Under the pieces are notes generated by a model, which was not told the origin of the DNA, ran no database searches, and was given only the letters and a program-made list of their open reading frames with translations. A DNA stretch of 64,000 nucleotides. It comes from an uncultured bacterium (GTDB lineage Bacteria > Babelota > Babeliae > Babelales > Babelaceae). Below, piece after piece: positions 5,372 through 43,736 of this stretch. The stretch covers positions 192,001 to 256,000 of the forward strand of contig CAVRKK010000001.1 in NCBI GenBank assembly GCA_963722385.1, in the 5' to 3' direction. Position numbers and translations under genes: made by a program. Each line of letters opens with the position of its first letter. Position 1 is the first letter of the stretch.

Positions 5372-6394
5372 CTAAAGATTATATTCGAAGAATTGATCAG
5401 TTGGGTAAAAGATACAAAACTCGTGAGCTTGCGGCGTCCCCGGGGTGTTTTTTAAGAGGTCATCAAGCTGCTTTTTTAACATTTGTGCCCGGAACTTTTG
5501 CGAGAAATCGAAATTTCCTAAATTATAATAATCATAAGTCGAATAATTGTAAAATTGAAATACCGAGGAATAGGGAAAGCACATGGCTTGCTGACTTTGG
5601 CGAATAGCATAATAATAGACCAACTCAAGATACTCGGTTGAGCCACACCACGAATTCGGTTTTAAGTAGAATGGGAGATCGGTATCTACAACGGCAAAGT
5701 CGCCTAATGGCGTAATTTTCACATTGCCAGGATTGCCATCACAATGTCCTGCTTGATAGAGCAAGAACTTTACTCGTTCAAATAGGTCGCTTTTTTGCTG
5801 CAAAAATTCATTTAAATCTATGTCACTGCTATACAAATTTAGAAATTCCAGCTTTTTAGCAAGCAAAATATAAAGCGTTACTTCTGCTTCTTTAATGGGG
5901 ACGATGCATTTTTCTGGAATAACTATGTTCTGGCATAAGGCGGTATTTCTATCGCAAATGTTTTGCAAAATTTCACGACCCTCAAGTCGCTCGAGAGCTC
6001 CCGTAAACTTTATGACATAGTTCGGAATGTCTTGGTGTAGCGCGACAGGAGTATGCCCCTCGTTAAACATGGACATACCAGTTTCTGCTAGATTAATCGG
6101 TTGCTTCGAACTGCGGTTCCTGGCAACATCGATAATAATTCTGTTTTTGAGTATCTCGTCAATTAACGAGTCCTTGCAACGATATTTTTCGATAAGCTCT
6201 TGCTCCGAAGGAAGACCATACAGCCCAGGCTTTCCCTGATAAGACAGTCCTGGAATGGCCATTGGCGAAGCGGTATATGCGGACATGCTTATGTTGAATG
6301 GGTACGGAAACCGGTTGTGCTCAAAATATTGCCCATGCTCGCTTTTTATAACACCTGCGCTTAGTATGGCTAATAAGAAAAATATGTTACGCAT
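5372..6394 (-). CDS. Secreted protein-kinase-like protein, paralog A
   Basis: Start set at MRNIFFLLAIL by alignment to paralog B; YVIKF, HCDGNPGNVKI (HxDxxxxN) and VVDTD resemble kinase-like catalytic motifs. Confidence 0.65.
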   Translation of the reverse strand: MRNIFFLLAILSAGVIKSEHGQYFEHNRFPYPFNISMSAYTASPMAIPGLSYQGKPGLYGLPSEQELIEKYRCKDSLIDEILKNRIIIDVARNRSSKQPINLAETGMSMFNEGHTPVALHQDIPNYVIKFTGALERLEGREILQNICDRNTALCQNIVIPEKCIVPIKEAEVTLYILLAKKLEFLNLYSSDIDLNEFLQQKSDLFERVKFLLYQAGHCDGNPGNVKITPLGDFAVVDTDLPFYLKPNSWCGSTEYLELVYYYAIRQSQQAMCFPYSSVFQFYNYSTYDYYNLGNFDFSQKFRAQMLKKQLDDLLKNTPGTPQAHEFCIFYPTDQFFEYNL

Positions 6395-6580
6395 TATGCT
6401 CCAGCAGAATTTAAATTGCAATTAAAAATAATAAAACAACGCTTTAATTTTATTTATTATGCTTAAGATACTTTTTTATTTCGATATTGTCAATAAACAT
6501 CTAGCGCTTTCGCAATTTTACACTATTAGAAAAAATTACACTTTTCTCTTGCAAGAGGCGTTAAATGCAGCGTCTTCGCA

Positions 6581-7477
6581 TCAAGGGCAGATTTCTTCCT
6601 GAGAAAAGCTGAATTTCCCCAAAGTATAATAATATGAAAATGGTAGCATTGAACTAACGTCGAAGCATGCACCTTGCTGATTGGAGCGAATGGCGTAGTA
6701 ATAGTTCATCTCAAGATGTTCAGTCGTGCCACACCATGAATTGGGTCTTAAGTAATATGGCAGATCGGTATCTATAATAGCAAAATCACCAAGTGGCGTA
6801 ATTTTCACATTGCCAGGATTGCCATCGCAATGACCTGCCTGGTAGAGCAAGAACTTTACTCGTTCAAATAAGTCACTTTTTTGCTGCAAAAATTCGTTTA
6901 AGTCTATGTCGTCATTGTATAAATTTAACAATTTTAATTTTTCAGCAAGTAATACATAGAGCGTCGTTTCTGCTTCTTTAATTGAAACGATGCATTTCTC
7001 TGGCATAATAATATTCTGACATAACGAAGTATTCCGAGCGCAAATGTTTCTCAATACTTCGCGCCCTTGAATTCGTGCAACCGCAGCCCTAAATTTTATG
7101 ACATAATTTAGATTGGTATAGGTGCCAACCGGTGTATGTCCTTCGCCAAAGGTAACTATGCCTGCTTCTGATAGGTAAACTGGTTGTTTAAGGCTTACGT
7201 TTCGTGCAATATCAATAATAATCTTATTTTTGAGTACCTCATTAATTAACGAATCTTTACATCGATATTTTTCGATAAGTTCTTGTTCAGGCGGAAGGCC
7301 ATAAAGATCAGTCTTGTCCTGACAAGACAACCCTTGGATTATTATCGGTAAAGGGGTATACGTGGGTAAGCTTATATTAAACGGGTAGGGAAATCGTTGA
7401 TGCTCAAAATAACGTCCATGCTCACTTTTCAAATAAGCGGTGCTTATGGTGGCTAACAAAAAAAATAGTATATACAT
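6581..7477 (-). CDS. Secreted protein-kinase-like protein, paralog B
   Basis: Shares long identical blocks with 5372-6394 (e.g. DIDLNEFLQQKSDLFERVKFLLYQAGHCDGNPGNVKITPLGDFA); AGGGGG RBS; shorter C-terminus. Confidence 0.65.
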   Translation of the reverse strand: MYILFFLLATISTAYLKSEHGRYFEHQRFPYPFNISLPTYTPLPIIIQGLSCQDKTDLYGLPPEQELIEKYRCKDSLINEVLKNKIIIDIARNVSLKQPVYLSEAGIVTFGEGHTPVGTYTNLNYVIKFRAAVARIQGREVLRNICARNTSLCQNIIMPEKCIVSIKEAETTLYVLLAEKLKLLNLYNDDIDLNEFLQQKSDLFERVKFLLYQAGHCDGNPGNVKITPLGDFAIIDTDLPYYLRPNSWCGTTEHLEMNYYYAIRSNQQGACFDVSSMLPFSYYYTLGKFSFSQEEICP

Positions 7478-7737: not shown

Positions 7738-10700
7738 ATGTTTTTTAGGCGAAGTGTTCTCTATGCTTTTCTAATGTCTCTCTCGCTCGGGCTGCAAGCC
7801 ACCGGAACAGAGGCTGCATGCTCGGTGATTGAATCGGCTAATTATCCCGTACCGTTGGGTTCGACTTATCCGGTATCAGTGGCGGTTTCACCTAGTGGCT
7901 CCTATCTTGCTACGGCTAATGGTAGCTCAAATGATGTGACAATATTTACCGTAGGTTCGGGTGGGGCTCTGAGTAAGGCCGCCACTTATCTGTTACCCTC
8001 AGGTTCGACTGGTGTTCAATCAGTAGCATTCTCACCCAATGGTTCCTATCTTGCTACGGCTAATGGTAGCTCAAGCGACGTAACAATATTTACGGTAGGA
8101 TCAGGCGGAGCTCTCAGTAATGCGACTTCATATGCCTTGCCTTCGGGTTCTACAGACTCCACCTCAGTAGCATTTTCACCAGATAGTTCTTATCTCGGTG
8201 TTGCTTATTCTGGCGGCGTGACAATATTTACGGTTGGAGCTGGGGGAGATCTCAGTAATGGCACCTCATACGCATTACCCTCGGGTTCTTCATTTCCTTA
8301 CTCAGTAGCATTTTCACCGAACGGTTCCTATCTCGTTACTGCTAATTTTAACTCAGCAAATGTGACAATATTTAGCGTATCAGCAGGAGTTTTAAGTAAT
8401 GCTACTTCGTATGCATTGACGTCAGGTGTTGATAATCCCTATTCAGTAGCATTTTCAGCTGATAGCTCCTATCTTGCAACTGCTAATTATGATTCAAATA
8501 GCGTGACAATATTTACTGTTGGATCAGGAGGAGCATTAACTGGAACGACAAGTTACACATTGCCAAGCGGCTCAGCCTATCCTTATTCGGTGGCCTTTTC
8601 GCCTGATGGGTCGTATCTTGCAACTGCTAATTACACTTCAAATAATGTAACGATATTTACCGCGAGCTCCGGGACCCTAAGTAATCCGACTTCGTATGCC
8701 TTGCCATCGGGTTCTGCGTCTCCCAGCGCCGTAGCATTTTTACCCGATGGCTCTTATCTCGCCACCGCTAATGAAACTTCAAATGATGTAACAACGTTTG
8801 CTGTAGGTACAGGAGGAGCTCTGAGTAATGCTGCATCGTATGCATTGCCGCCAGGCTGTACAGCTCCTGCTACGGTGGCATTTTCACCGGATGGCCTCTA
8901 TCTTGCTGCTGCCAACGAAGATTCGAATAATGTGACAATATTTAGCGTAGAAGCCAATGGGACCCTTGATAAAGTTGCATTCTTTGCATTGCCATCGGGC
9001 TCTATATATCCTGTATCAGTGGCATTTTCGCCCAATGGCTTATATCTTGCTACGGCTAATCAAAGTTCAAATGATGTGACGATATTCACCGTAGGATCCG
9101 GTGGAGTGCTGAGTAATGCTTCATCGTATTCCTTGCCGTCGGGTTCTACCTTCCCGAAATCAGTGGCATTTTCACCTGATAGTTCCTATCTTGCTACTGC
9201 TAATCAAGGTTCAAATAATGTGACAATATTTAGTGTAGAAGCCGGTGGAAATTTAAGTAATGCGACTTCTTATGAGGTGTCAGCAGACGTGCCTTACTCA
9301 GTGGCATTTTCACCCAATGGTTCCTATCTTGCTACTGCTAATGCAGGTTCAAATAACGTGACAATATTTAGCGTAGGGACAGGTGGGATCCTTACAAGTG
9401 GTGGGACATATGCCCTACCGGCAAATACCTACGAGCCTTGCTCTTTGGCATTTTCTCCTAATAGCTCTTATCTTGCTACCGCTAATCAAGGTTCAAGTAA
9501 TGAGGTAGTAATATTTGCGGTAGAAGCAGGAGGGATTCTGAGTAATCCCGCTGCATATTCATTACCGCCAAGTTCTTCTTATCCTTACCAATTGGCATTT
9601 TCGCCCGATGGTTCTTATCTTGTTACGGCTAATAACAGTTCCGATGTCACCGTATTTCAAGTAAACCCAGAGGGAGTTCCCAACCATGCTGTCTCGTACG
9701 CCTTGCCACGAGGCGCGGCAGCGCCCTACTCAGTAGCATTTTCACCTAATGGGTCTTGTATTGCTACCGCTAGCCCTTACTCAAGCAACGTAACGCTCTT
9801 TAGGCTTGGCTGCTCTAGCCCAGCAGTCTCTTATGCTTTGCCAGGGGGCTCTCAAGAGCCAGACTCAGTAGCCTTTTCTCCGAATGGCGTATACCTTGCA
9901 ACGGCAAATTACAATTCAAGTGACGTAACACTTTTTGAAGTAAATTATAATAACACCATCAGCAATCTTCTTTTAAGAAGGTCTTTCCCTTTGCCAATGG
10001 GCTCATTGCAGCCTACCAGCATATCATTTTCTTCAGATAGCGCATATGTAGCAACCGCAAATAGCAATTCAAATGATGTTACCCTTTTTAAATTGCTCAA
10101 TGGCAACTTAACCTCAGCAACTTCCTATGCATTACCTACTGAGTCGAGTAACCCGATGTCATTGGCCTTTTCGCCTGATAATTCTTGCCTTGCAGTAGCC
10201 AACAGTAACTCAAGTGACGTAACACTGTTTAAGTTTGCTACAGGGCAATTGAATAACCCAATTTCTTATGCATTACCGTCTGGATCGTTATATCCCGCAG
10301 CAATCATATTTGCTCCTGATGGCACCTACCTTCTAACAGCAAATGCAGAATCAAGCGATGTAACCCTCTTTCAGGTAACAGATGGCGCGTTAAATAACGG
10401 TATTTCTCAACCTCTTCCAGCTGGCTCGGTAGAACCACGGTCAATAGCGCTTATAGACGATGATAAAAATAACCTATTGTTTGGTACTGCTAATACACTT
10501 TCGCATGATATAACTATTTTTACTTTAACGGTAGGCACACTTAATAGTGGTATATCATATCAACTCCCAGCTGGCGCGCTTACACCCGTATCGCTTGTCG
10601 CTTCCTCCAATGGCGAGTTCGTTGCTACTGCCAATAGCGCTTCTAATACCATTACCCTTTTTAAAAATAATAATGGTCGCTTAAACAATGGCACCTCGTA

Positions 10701-11034
10701 CGACCTGCCTGCTAATTCTACAGATTGCGTGTCGATAGCTATTGCTCCTCTGCTTAGTTTCAATGGAAGTACGCCTATTGCTACCGCCAATTTTTACTCA
10801 AATGATGTATCACTTTTCCCGCTGTTTGGTTCTGACATCGGAGATGGCTCATCGGGAGATGGCTCAGGAAACTCAAGCGGCGGCAATTCTGATTTGGGTA
10901 TTATCCTCGGAACGATCCTAGGATTTGGGGGAGGAACTCTAACCGGGATAACTATAGCCGGCATCGCTGCTTATATCATATTCCGGTATCTGCCAAAAAG
11001 GGGAAAAGACTCTGCTTATATGCCAGAAATATAA
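7738..11034 (+). CDS. Beta-propeller repeat surface protein (lactonase/WD40-like blades) with signal peptide and C-terminal TM anchor
   Basis: 21 repeats of ~46-48 aa (YALPSGSxxPxSVAFSPxGSYLATANxxSNxVTIF); G/S linker; hydrophobic C-terminal helix followed by RYLPKRGK. Confidence 0.9.
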   Translation: MFFRRSVLYAFLMSLSLGLQATGTEAACSVIESANYPVPLGSTYPVSVAVSPSGSYLATANGSSNDVTIFTVGSGGALSKAATYLLPSGSTGVQSVAFSPNGSYLATANGSSSDVTIFTVGSGGALSNATSYALPSGSTDSTSVAFSPDSSYLGVAYSGGVTIFTVGAGGDLSNGTSYALPSGSSFPYSVAFSPNGSYLVTANFNSANVTIFSVSAGVLSNATSYALTSGVDNPYSVAFSADSSYLATANYDSNSVTIFTVGSGGALTGTTSYTLPSGSAYPYSVAFSPDGSYLATANYTSNNVTIFTASSGTLSNPTSYALPSGSASPSAVAFLPDGSYLATANETSNDVTTFAVGTGGALSNAASYALPPGCTAPATVAFSPDGLYLAAANEDSNNVTIFSVEANGTLDKVAFFALPSGSIYPVSVAFSPNGLYLATANQSSNDVTIFTVGSGGVLSNASSYSLPSGSTFPKSVAFSPDSSYLATANQGSNNVTIFSVEAGGNLSNATSYEVSADVPYSVAFSPNGSYLATANAGSNNVTIFSVGTGGILTSGGTYALPANTYEPCSLAFSPNSSYLATANQGSSNEVVIFAVEAGGILSNPAAYSLPPSSSYPYQLAFSPDGSYLVTANNSSDVTVFQVNPEGVPNHAVSYALPRGAAAPYSVAFSPNGSCIATASPYSSNVTLFRLGCSSPAVSYALPGGSQEPDSVAFSPNGVYLATANYNSSDVTLFEVNYNNTISNLLLRRSFPLPMGSLQPTSISFSSDSAYVATANSNSNDVTLFKLLNGNLTSATSYALPTESSNPMSLAFSPDNSCLAVANSNSSDVTLFKFATGQLNNPISYALPSGSLYPAAIIFAPDGTYLLTANAESSDVTLFQVTDGALNNGISQPLPAGSVEPRSIALIDDDKNNLLFGTANTLSHDITIFTLTVGTLNSGISYQLPAGALTPVSLVASSNGEFVATANSASNTITLFKNNNGRLNNGTSYDLPANSTDCVSIAIAPLLSFNGSTPIATANFYSNDVSLFPLFGSDIGDGSSGDGSGNSSGGNSDLGIILGTILGFGGGTLTGITIAGIAAYIIFRYLPKRGKDSAYMPEI

Positions 11035-24659: not shown

Positions 24660-25015
24660 TCGCGTACGGCTGACGGAACAGAGCGAATTGAATTGAAATT
24701 GAATCGCCTGCCCGGCTGGGGGCTAAGGGACATCGTCCCTTAGCAAATCCCCAAAGCGTTATGCTTACAGGCTTGGTGTGTGTAGTTATCGTTCGCCAAA
24801 GCGCACGATAACTTACGCCATTATCATGTGCGCTACGCTTCATGATAAAAATCTATTTTCCGTCAGGAAAATTGCGGTAGCCATAATCATGCGCCACGCA
24901 TGGTTATGGCATTGAAAAAGAAAAGACAGAGCATATGCTACTACACATATTGGTGTGGGTGCAGGGCCGCTGCCCTGCCGCTCGACGCGGAGTCGCCCCA
25001 GCCGGGCAGGCGATT
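24660..25015 (+). repeat. Dispersed multi-hairpin repeat element, copy 1 (MITE-like or structured RNA)
   Basis: 24660-24881 is a near-identical reverse complement of 32071-32290; homology continues to 24996; a 20-bp perfect inverted repeat at 24702-24721 and 24996-25015; at least 6 hairpins. Confidence 0.9.
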
Positions 25016-31866: not shown

Positions 31867-31951
31867 GTTGTTTCCCTATTGCTGCTGGGGTTGGTGCGTG
31901 CGCTTACGCAGCCGACTTCGCCGAGGCGGTGGGAACGCTTACGCAGCGGGC

Positions 31952-32290
31952 GCGACTCCGCGTCGAGCGGCAGGGCGGCGGCCCTGCACCCGTCGATTTG
32001 TTTTTGTTACTTACGTGCCTCATCTTCTTTACGTCTATGATGCTCTAACCATGCGAGGCGCATGCTTAGAGCTACCGCAATTTTCCTGACGGAAAATAGA
32101 TTTTTATCATGAAGCGTAGCGCACATGATAATGGCGTAAGTTATCGTGCGCTTTGGCGAACGATAACTACACACACCAAGCCTGTAAGCATAACGCTTTG
32201 GGGATTGCTAAGGGACGATGTCCCTTAGCCCCCAGCCGGGCAGGCGATTCGATTCAATTCAATTCGCTCTGTTCCGTCAGCCGTACGCGA
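31952..32290 (-). repeat. Dispersed multi-hairpin repeat element, copy 2
   Basis: Reverse complement of 24660-24996; occupies the 478-nt gap between rny and ymdB. Confidence 0.9.
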
Positions 32291-32344
32291 CTTCGCCTAG
32301 GCTACACCCACCAAGCAGGCGATTCAGTTCAATTTCAATTCAAT

Positions 32345-43520: not shown

Positions 43521-43657
43521 CTATCTTCCGTTAGGAAGATTGCGTTTGCCTAATCATGCGCCCCGCATGGTTATGGCATTGAACGAACGAGTTACAAAGA
43601 TGAGCACTTAGAGCAGGAGGTCCCAAATCAACGGGTGCAGGGCCGCCGCCATGCCGC
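43521..43657 (+). repeat. Dispersed multi-hairpin repeat element, copy 3 (3' module only)
   Basis: Aligns to about 24853-24981: ATCTTCC-gtta-GGAAGAT, GCCTAATCATGCG-ccc-CGCATGGTTATGGC, GGGTGCAGGGCCGCCGCC. Confidence 0.85.
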
Positions 43658-43736
43658 CCACCGCGTAGGTGTGCTCGCCGCACAGGCGCCCCACGCCGCT
43701 TGATATAGTCGCACCCAGCTACGATATCCATCAAGC

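What the first reader, a model, noticed from the sequence alone, without database searches (positions are those of the whole stretch)
24660..25015. Dispersed multi-hairpin non-coding element with compensatory base changes (three copies)
Seen: a chain of hairpins H1 24722-24744, H2 24784-24813, H3 24821-24848, H4 24855-24872, H5 24880-24910, then a variable 46-55 nt segment, then H6 24961-24978. Stems covary between copies: H4 is ATTTTCC/GGAAAAT here and ATCTTCC/GGAAGAT at 43523; H5 is GCCATAA/TTATGGC here and GCTCTAA/TTAGAGC in copy 2. A U-G pair in H5 favours the plus strand here. All three copies lie 17-55 nt after a stop codon in the sense orientation of that gene. Inference: structure is under selection, so this is an unrecognised structured RNA or ssDNA-hairpin mobile element family (REP/RAYT-like or MITE). 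A variable segment between conserved hairpins also resembles a guide-scaffold design. No cognate enzyme is in the window.
Basis: partly seen in the sequence, partly recalled or inferred. Interest (0 to 1): 0.85.

Follow-up and report, generated by a model that had tools for sequence, protein, structure and literature searches.

The report
Triplex-capped mobile DNA hairpin repeat
The repeated hairpin chain is a small mobile DNA element, not an RNA gene: each end is laid out to fold one DNA strand into a short three-stranded helix plus a tiny capping hairpin, and the same end recurs in several unrelated bacterial groups with no partner enzyme found.

Summary
In detail: H1-H6 sit exactly as stated, and the genome holds about 48 copies. 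Each end is a mirror purine tract, a hairpin and a 4-bp capping mini-hairpin. The tract, the stem's purine arm and its pyrimidine arm change together, which is the layout of a class I purine-motif intrastrand triplex. The right-end triplex lies on one strand and the left-end one on the other. Purine-motif triplexes do not form in RNA, and copies show no sense bias, so this is a DNA element. The same end occurs singly, as inverted doublets and as tandem arrays in Binatota-type, Planctomycetota, Clostridia and Chloroflexi records. Internal hairpins are lineage-specific cargo, and the variable segment is an inherited linker, not a guide. All 3 testable sites are empty in a congener, where the core rides inside IS5-type arms. 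RAYT, DUF559, GIY-YIG, GxxExxY, TnpB and RT partners were sought and not found. This scan has reported class II (BoxC) triplex repeats on other DNA; sequence look-ups found this family on no other genome. Verdict: a REP/REPIN-like element with a new type of end and an unknown enzyme.

The parts
24685..24704 (.). Short AT-rich 5-mer tandem run outside the left end (copy 1), of variable length between copies
24702..24721 (.). Left terminal inverted repeat (20 nt, perfect with 24996-25015). It contains the left capping mini-hairpin 24705-24717, read on the minus strand
24722..24744 (-). H1 = duplex part of the left triplex unit (purine arm on the minus strand)
24745..24752 (-). Mirror third-strand tract of the left unit. 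Copy 1 has one extra base versus copy 2, which shifts the register (4 of 6 matches versus 5 of 6)
24784..24813 (.). H2, cargo hairpin of the type-1 left module (24 of 48 copies)
24821..24848 (-). H3, cargo hairpin; apex is a GNA triloop on the minus strand in 15 of 21 copies
24855..24872 (+). H4, covarying stem; loop GNNA in 38 of 40 copies, GNRA in only 4 of 40
24880..24910 (+). H5, long covarying hairpin; G.T 35 versus A.C 3 on the plus strand; 3-nt loop also seen inverted
24911..24956 (+). Purine-rich linker (median 50 nt), inherited between copies, no target found
24957..24960 (+). Mirror third-strand tract of the right triplex unit
24961..24978 (+). H6 = duplex part of the right triplex unit
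24983..24995 (+). Capping mini-hairpin (4-bp covarying stem, 5-nt G...A loop)
24996..25015 (.). Right terminal inverted repeat, holding a second, degenerate cap unit (25000-25012)
31901..32344 (-). Copy 2 with tandem extra caps and a nested smaller REP-like repeat (31912-31927, 32288-32305). It fills the rny-ymdB junction, which is 4 nt in the congener
43523..43688 (+). Copy 3: right half only (H4, H5, linker, triplex unit with one stem mismatch, two caps)

Best explanation
A non-autonomous, REP/REPIN-like mobile DNA element. Its functional unit is an end module of about 40 nt that acts in single-stranded DNA: a mirror purine tract, a 4-nt junction, a hairpin, a 4-nt spacer and a 4-bp cap hairpin. 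The mirror tract folds back on the hairpin's purine arm as a short class I (third strand 5') purine-motif triplex. Two modules in inverted orientation, one working on each strand, bracket lineage-specific cargo hairpins (H2-H5). SHOWN: three-way covariation, two-strand layout, cross-phylum recurrence, presence/absence, arrays, IS insertions into the module, and IS5-type arms around the core in the congener. INFERRED: that the triplex forms (3-6 triads, probably protein- or Mg-stabilised), and that a trans-acting enzyme specific for ssDNA structure (HUH-type or a small nuclease, by analogy with RAYT/REP) binds the module at forks or transcription bubbles, cuts at or near the cap and joins it elsewhere. 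Slippage at the caps would give the arrays and exchange between caps would give the core flips. In the congener a DDE transposase moved it as cargo.
For: Units anchored only on the cap match the triad rule at 206 of 248 positions at the predicted register, versus 0.20-0.49 at six other registers. Opposite A the third strand has A/T in 16 of 20; opposite G it has A/T in 16 of 104. One representative per tract scores 39 of 44 versus a permuted mean of 26.9 (p=1e-5). Mirror beats direct repeat 27 to 19 of 33. A generic genome scan gives 40 hits at this register versus 5, 6 and 2 at others, 33 of the 40 inside elements, and 11 and 2 in shuffles. Left ends: 25 of 26 parsed (of 48 copies) have at least 4 mirror matches on the opposite strand. 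Cap stems are fully Watson-Crick in 38 of 45, in six sequence forms. 112 of 129 genome-collection loci carry a true hairpin unit. The terminal 16-mer occurs 32, 64, 40, 19 and 352 times in five genomes versus 0-2 for the control. Convergent gaps hold 17 of 48 copies versus 87 of 471 background gaps (p=0.003). 3 of 3 testable sites are empty in the congener. An IS4-family element sits inside one module with a near-perfect 8-bp duplication (L366). PMC4666352 (passages) defines class I and states that purine-motif helices cannot form in RNA.
Against: No enzyme was found, so the mobilisation step is analogy. The triplexes are short: 3-4 triads at most right ends, below the 6-nt minimum stem of ITxF. 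The 2-3 nt before the purine arm also pair with the 3' side and covary, so either this neck opens or one nucleotide must span 3 bp; the geometry is untested. The types counted are related and two search patterns fixed some positions, so the p-values overstate; 2 of the 11 representatives are misparses that were kept in. Ten of 48 copies have no recognised left module, and the left end was not parsed in 22 of 48. Only 3 of 48 sites were testable for emptiness, at 57% median protein identity, so no target site or duplication could be read. Copy 1's left tract is out of register by one base.
Confidence: 0.62

Rival explanations
1. A classical MITE: the terminal repeats are double-stranded binding sites of a DDE transposase and the hairpins are passengers.
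For: Perfect 20-nt terminal repeat. 19 DDE_Tnp_1 matches in this genome. In the congener 20 copies sit inside arms of about 38-40 nt ending at CTAG/CTAA, one of which matches the left end of an IS5-family element of this genome (E=6e-4). Two metagenome loci have an IS4-family gene between two inverted modules.
Against: The ends covary in structure rather than keeping sequence. Single ends dominate elsewhere: 44 of 53 loci examined show no paired end. The IS4 elements carry their own inverted repeats, and one sits inside a module with a duplication. This genome's copies lack the IS5 arms; the arm models hit only the IS itself.
Confidence: 0.13
2. A host-serving ssDNA signal (fork pause, priming or nucleoid site) that is kept by selection and multiplied by recombination or gene conversion, with no dedicated mobilising enzyme.
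For: No enzyme was found. The end is conserved across phyla. Triplex-only versions without the cap occur in prophage intergenic regions. A weak strand bias against GC skew, 32 to 16 (p=0.03). BoxC/PIT blocks polymerase in vitro (PMC4666352 passage).
Against: Patchy distribution: 5 of 261 genomes of the phylum match the end pattern, one of them a coding false hit. Sites are not shared with the congener. One copy splits a 4-nt operon junction.
Confidence: 0.13
3. A structured non-coding RNA family, or a 3'-UTR RNA element, spread as a repeat.
For: Strong RNA folding of the plus strand (z -12.4). G.T over A.C 35 to 3 in H5 on the plus strand. All three window copies are sense to the upstream gene.
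Against: The left triplex and the H3 GNA loop need the minus strand, the right triplex and the H4 loop the plus strand. No sense bias here (13:10), nor in 58 loci of other genomes (16, 16, 14, 12 with crude gene calls). H4 loops are GNRA in only 4 of 40. No Rfam match.
Confidence: 0.07
4. A guide-plus-scaffold RNA (TnpB/IscB/bridge-RNA-like) whose variable segment is the guide.
For: A variable segment of about 50 nt between conserved hairpins. TnpB genes exist in the three related genomes with many copies.
Against: 36 of 37 linkers are closer to another copy's linker than any shuffled linker is, and the best match outside elements is 16 nt at E=0.012. No phage match. Of the 30 TnpB loci fetched, only one has a copy nearby, a gene away.
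Confidence: 0.02

Closest known systems
BoxC / PIT / TMECO intrastrand triplex repeats (Holder et al. 2015, PMC4666352; passages and section 16 read)
   Same: Hairpin plus mirror purine tract with G*G.C, A*A.T and T*A.T triads; intergenic; no strand bias; patchy among relatives; no known function or enzyme.
   Different: TMECO is class II (third strand 3', 9-nt stems, 3-nt loop). This unit is class I (third strand 5'), has 3-6 triads and a paired neck, carries a conserved cap mini-hairpin, and forms the two inverted ends of a larger cargo-carrying element.
REP / REPIN / BIME with RAYT (TnpA-REP) (PMC8266576, PMC3733652, bioRxiv 10.1101/2021.07.10.451892; passages read)
   Same: Extragenic ssDNA hairpin units occurring singly, as inverted doublets and as arrays; a tetranucleotide 5' of the stem; IS insertion targets (PMC1525189, listing and abstract start only).
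   Different: The 5' tract is not a fixed GTAG or CGTC tag but mirrors the stem. No RAYT over cut-off in 5 of 5 genomes searched, and no Y1 gene flanked by the unit.
TIRtrons / TIRYT (Di Nocera et al. 2013, PMC3733652; passages read)
   Same: Long, partly self-complementary terminal repeats forming dispersed families. One loop variant fits their GGGGWSAS motif.
   Different: No tyrosine transposase lies between these ends in any locus seen. The GGGGWSAS fit holds for one lineage's loop only.
Bacterial MITEs derived from IS5-family elements
   Same: In the congener the core lies within IS5-type left and right arms ending at CTAG/CTAA.
   Different: That wrapping is absent from this genome's copies, and the core occurs both ways round inside the arms (13:7 of 20, read).

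Membership tests
Class I purine-motif intrastrand triplex (ITxF definition) | Order: reverse-Hoogsteen tract 5', then purine tract, then pyrimidine tract; triads GGC, AAT, TAT | tested here: met
Class I purine-motif intrastrand triplex (ITxF definition) | Stem of 6-15 triads | tested here: not met
   Mostly 3-5 triads; 6 in only three types
Class I purine-motif intrastrand triplex (ITxF definition) | Triplex forms physically | not testable with these tools
   needs CD, NMR or DMS footprinting
BoxC / PIT / TMECO | Class II order and the 9-nt TMECO consensus | tested here: not met
   Third strand is 5' and the tracts differ (versus 56, 77)
BoxC-type repeats with DUF559 (earlier scan notes) | DUF559 gene bracketed by the repeats | tested here: not met
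   0 of 6 DUF559 loci in 5 genomes carry the unit; no DUF559 match in this genome or the congener
REP/REPIN-RAYT | Extragenic hairpin units as singles, inverted doublets and arrays | tested here: met
REP/REPIN-RAYT | Fixed GTAG (or CGTC) tag 5' of the stem | tested here: not met
   The 5' tract varies with the stem
REP/REPIN-RAYT | RAYT gene flanked by cognate repeats in the genome | tested here: not met
   NF047646 over cut-off in 0 of 5 genomes; the six Y1 loci scanned and the one weak RAYT-like locus lack the unit. The genomes are incomplete.
MITE (DDE-dependent) | Terminal inverted repeats, no coding capacity | tested here: met
MITE (DDE-dependent) | Target-site duplication | tested here: inconclusive
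   None evident in flanks by eye; empty sites too diverged
MITE (DDE-dependent) | Autonomous IS with the same ends | tested here: not met
   Not found for the triplex ends; met only for the congener's outer IS5-type arms
Rfam RNA families | Score at gathering threshold | tested here: not met
IS200/IS605 derivatives (TnpA-Y1, TnpB) | Shared ends with an IS200/IS605 element | tested here: not met
   The IS200-like and TnpB elements viewed have unrelated ends

The most novel reading that the evidence does not exclude
A previously undescribed, cross-phylum class of mobile elements whose ends are read as three-stranded ssDNA plus a cap hairpin by a dedicated, still unknown enzyme. This would be a natural protein-triplex recognition system, and the class I counterpart of the orphan BoxC repeats.
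Probability: 0.27. Interest if true: 0.85.

Novelty: new variant of a known kind. Interest (0 to 1): 0.58.

Why it matters
Bacterial intrastrand triplex motifs have had no assigned function since BoxC/PIT. Here a triplex layout shows three-way covariation across many natural variants and sits at a defined place, the two ends of a mobile element, one per strand. That gives ready-made oligonucleotides and natural compensatory triples for testing whether such triplexes form and matter in cells. It also gives a precise descriptor for hunting the enzyme. It shows that compensatory changes in dispersed hairpins need not mean RNA.

Tried and rejected
Enzyme searches with no partner found:
- Y1_Tnp in this genome (7 matches, IS200-like, other ends) and in 5 other genomes (3 matches, no unit).
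- RAYT NF047646: 0 of 5 genomes over cut-off.
- GIY-YIG: 11 loci; three lie near a unit but on one side only.
- DUF559: 0 of 6 loci carry the unit.
- GxxExxY, RT and TnpB in 12 genomes: 63 loci scanned; none is bracketed, one RT has a cap-less unit upstream, one TnpB lies a gene away from a copy.
- All-against-all of neighbouring ORFs in 69 genome loci and 80 metagenome loci: host genes only among the clusters printed.
- Bracket pattern for a 451-511-nt inner span: 0 of 301 genomes. Only this one size range and one broad phylum sample were tried.
- Inverted pairs 330-3500 nt apart in the loci held: 12 pairs. Ten of their 19 ORFs were scanned and gave host genes or IS4-family elements with their own ends.

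Other searches:
- Viral collection: full end patterns 0 and 0, 6 loci with a looser one, 109 loci with the cap-less core, many in prophage-like contexts.
- Plasmid and phage blastn gave nothing useful.
- blastn of the whole element in 60 relatives: 1 genome, end only.
- Sequencing runs: no RNA holder listed. Four DNA contig runs showed no joint that skips an element.
- Literature searches without a description of this family. The supplements and database of PMC4666352 were not read and could list some longer units.

Discarded analyses: the first H4 parse picked wrong matches and was redone. The arm-orientation count was empty and double-counted, so 13:7 was read by eye.

Full report
Observation. 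The six hairpins are at the stated coordinates, and the stretch folds far better than shuffles as DNA and as RNA on either strand (z -13.2, -12.4, -11.0). Copy 1 has a perfect 20-nt terminal inverted repeat, 24702-24721/24996-25015. Copy 2 (minus strand) is identical at 202 of 208 aligned positions over the left and middle part. Copy 3 is the right half only. Rfam gives nothing at gathering threshold in the window or in 10 related loci, and only two chance-level hits at E up to 1. The host is a 1.6-Mb, two-contig genome rich in WD40 and ankyrin proteins. I read it as Dependentiae-like; that name is my inference and comes from no call.

Family in this genome. blastn gives 47 clusters. A right-end model gives 46 anchors, plus 2 added by eye; at least two left-only copies exist besides. 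Copies share H4-H5-linker-H6 (H4 parsed in 40 and H5 in 36 of 48). They differ in the left module: 24 type 1 (H1-H3), 10 type 2, 4 type 3, and 10 with none recognised. Orientation is not sense-biased: 30 of 48 are sense to the upstream gene (p=0.11) and it is 13:10 in co-directional gaps (p=0.68). Convergent gaps are enriched, 17 of 48 versus 87 of 471 (p=0.003) (gene calls are longest-ORF approximations). The variable segment is a purine-rich linker of median 50 nt. 36 of 37 are nearer another copy's linker than any shuffle, and the best match outside elements is 16 nt at E=0.012. It is inherited, not a guide.

The ends are the conserved unit. The congener G001 (57% median protein identity) has about 20 copies with the same ends and unrelated inner hairpins. 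Titles shown for 80 of them include Binatus/Binataceae and uncultured deltaproteobacteria, Planctomycetota, Clostridia, Chloroflexaceae and Acidiferrales, besides chance hits in coding DNA. A left-end pattern gave 121 metagenome loci. The unit occurs alone, as inverted doublets as short as 93-101 nt, and as tandem arrays. Within the host's phylum it is patchy: 5 of 261 genomes, one a coding false hit.

Anatomy of the end. Read 5' to 3' on the G-rich strand, it is a short tract, a junction, a hairpin whose 5' arm is purine, a 4-nt spacer and a 4-bp cap hairpin with a 5-nt G...A loop. The cap stem covaries (38 of 45 fully Watson-Crick, six forms; the loop was fixed by the pattern). The first tract is the mirror image of the purine arm, with T allowed opposite A: for example GGGT with AGGG, AGGT with AGGA, AAGT with AGAA, GAGT with AGAG, GGGAGT with AGAGGG. 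Anchoring only on the cap, 206 of 248 positions fit the triad rule at this register against 0.20-0.49 at six others. Per-tract permutation gives 39 of 44 against 26.9 (p=1e-5), and mirror beats direct repeat 27 to 19 of 33. The types are related, two search patterns fixed some positions and two misparsed representatives were kept, so the p-values are indicative only. The discriminating variants come from this genome and the congener, where positions 3-5 were free. A pattern-free scan finds 40 such units at this register against 5, 6 and 2 at others, 33 inside elements, and 11 and 2 in shuffles; the congener gives 33 against 11, 3 and 1. Hairpin repair by template switching makes inverted repeats, not mirror repeats (my reasoning), so a third strand is the simplest cause. 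By the definition in Holder et al. (PMC4666352, passages) this is class I; BoxC/TMECO is class II. Caveats: most units have 3-5 triads, below that paper's 6-nt minimum. The 2-3 nt before the purine arm also pair with the 3' side, so the fold needs either an open neck or a 1-nt linker spanning 3 bp. The triplex idea was prompted by earlier scan notes on BoxC repeats and then tested here.

DNA, not RNA. The right triplex is on the element's plus strand and the left one on the minus strand (25 of 26 parsed left ends; 22 of 48 not parsed). H4 loops are GNNA on the plus strand in 38 of 40 and GNRA in only 4, while the H3 apex is GNA on the minus strand in 15 of 21. That C-closed GNA/GNNA loops are especially stable in DNA is recalled knowledge. 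H5 does favour the plus strand (G.T 35, A.C 3), which fits its place in the right half. [quoted passage not shown] Orientation in 58 loci of other genomes is also flat (16, 16, 14, 12).

Mobility. All 3 sites of 48 whose flanking orthologs are adjacent in the congener are empty there (gaps 4, 120 and 71 nt against 478, 418 and 447), including rny-ymdB in this window. Both testable congener sites lack the element here. In the congener the core lies inside arms of about 38-40 nt ending at CTAG/CTAA. One arm matches the left end of a frameshifted IS5-family element of this genome, and the core faces both ways inside the arms (13:7 of 20). There it travelled as MITE cargo and either flips at its inner repeats or was captured twice. 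This genome's copies lack those arms. In Chloroflexi-type copies several IS4-family elements begin inside the end module, one with a near-perfect 8-bp duplication and the module continuing beyond it (L366). Two have left-type modules on both sides (L345, L367) but carry their own inverted repeats. I read these as IS targeting of the repeat, as reported for REPs (PMC1525189, listing and abstract start only), not as the autonomous form.

Enzyme. None was found: RAYT, other Y1, GIY-YIG, DUF559, GxxExxY, RT and TnpB loci are not bracketed by the unit, and neighbour clustering and one bracket search were blank. A broken small GIY-YIG gene in this genome is flanked by the smaller REP-like repeat that nests in the element, so it is a candidate partner for that passenger only.

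Mechanism and verdict. Most likely (0.62) this is a REP/REPIN-like non-autonomous element whose ssDNA end modules are bound, cut and rejoined by an unidentified structure-specific enzyme, by analogy with TnpA-REP acting on folded ssDNA (PMC8266576, passages). Covariation, the two-strand layout, spread and gain/loss are shown; triplex formation and the enzyme are inferred. It works like REP/REPIN and folds like BoxC but fails the membership tests of both. I found no description of it; the ITxF supplements were not read. Earlier scan notes describe class II triplex repeats on other genomes, and sequence look-ups found this family only in this genome. New variant of a known kind; interest 0.58.

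Noticed in passing
G000:C1:296557-296762 (-) (L168): A frameshifted small GIY-YIG gene preceded by copies of the smaller REP-like hairpin repeat that also nests in and beside the big element (e.g. window 31912-31927, 32288-32305); candidate partner of that smaller repeat.
   Followed up: partly
G000:C2:1252020-1252840; G001 copies, e.g. L021-L026: A frameshifted IS5-family element whose ends match the outer arms that wrap the triplex core in the congener; the core faces both ways inside the arms (13:7).
   Followed up: yes
L345, L366, L367, L313, L304: Several different IS4-family elements start inside the end module in Chloroflexi-type copies; L366 shows a near-perfect 8-bp duplication. The module looks like an IS hot spot.
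   Followed up: partly
L179, L217, L236 and similar viral loci: P2-like prophages carry the cap-less triplex unit at one conserved intergenic place, about 350 nt beyond a 300-aa ORF with no Pfam match (a replication protein by recalled resemblance); possible origin-linked ssDNA signal.
   Followed up: no
L181-L184, L192-L194, L252-L253: Prophage-like contigs with arrays of a unit of about 136 nt that has two triplex-type modules on each side, without the cap.
   Followed up: no
L223:2960-3030: Two tandem triplex-type modules downstream of a Zot-family gene in a filamentous-phage-like contig.
   Followed up: no
G069 loci L411-L438: A relative with 2-3 tandem triplex units per end, a 19-nt cap array of six units (L416), and a long element of about 660 nt holding degenerate repeats of about 60 nt (L432).
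   Followed up: partly
G001:C1:157800-158000: An old copy with this genome's architecture and a further compensated cap form, beside the congener's own family.
   Followed up: partly
window 7738-11034: A 1098-aa beta-propeller (WD40-like) protein built of repeats of about 48 aa.
   Followed up: no
window 5372-7477: Two adjacent paralogous ORFs (72-81% DNA identity over 300-nt blocks), a recent tandem duplication.
   Followed up: no
G000:C2:344423, 544726, 197451 (L001-L003): An IS200-like tnpA-only element in three copies whose right end resembles that of a TnpB-only element (L562, L576), suggesting one IS200/IS605 family split in two; seen by eye.
   Followed up: no
L547:2570: A cap-less triplex unit upstream of a 498-aa reverse transcriptase frame in G061, on one side only.
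   Followed up: no
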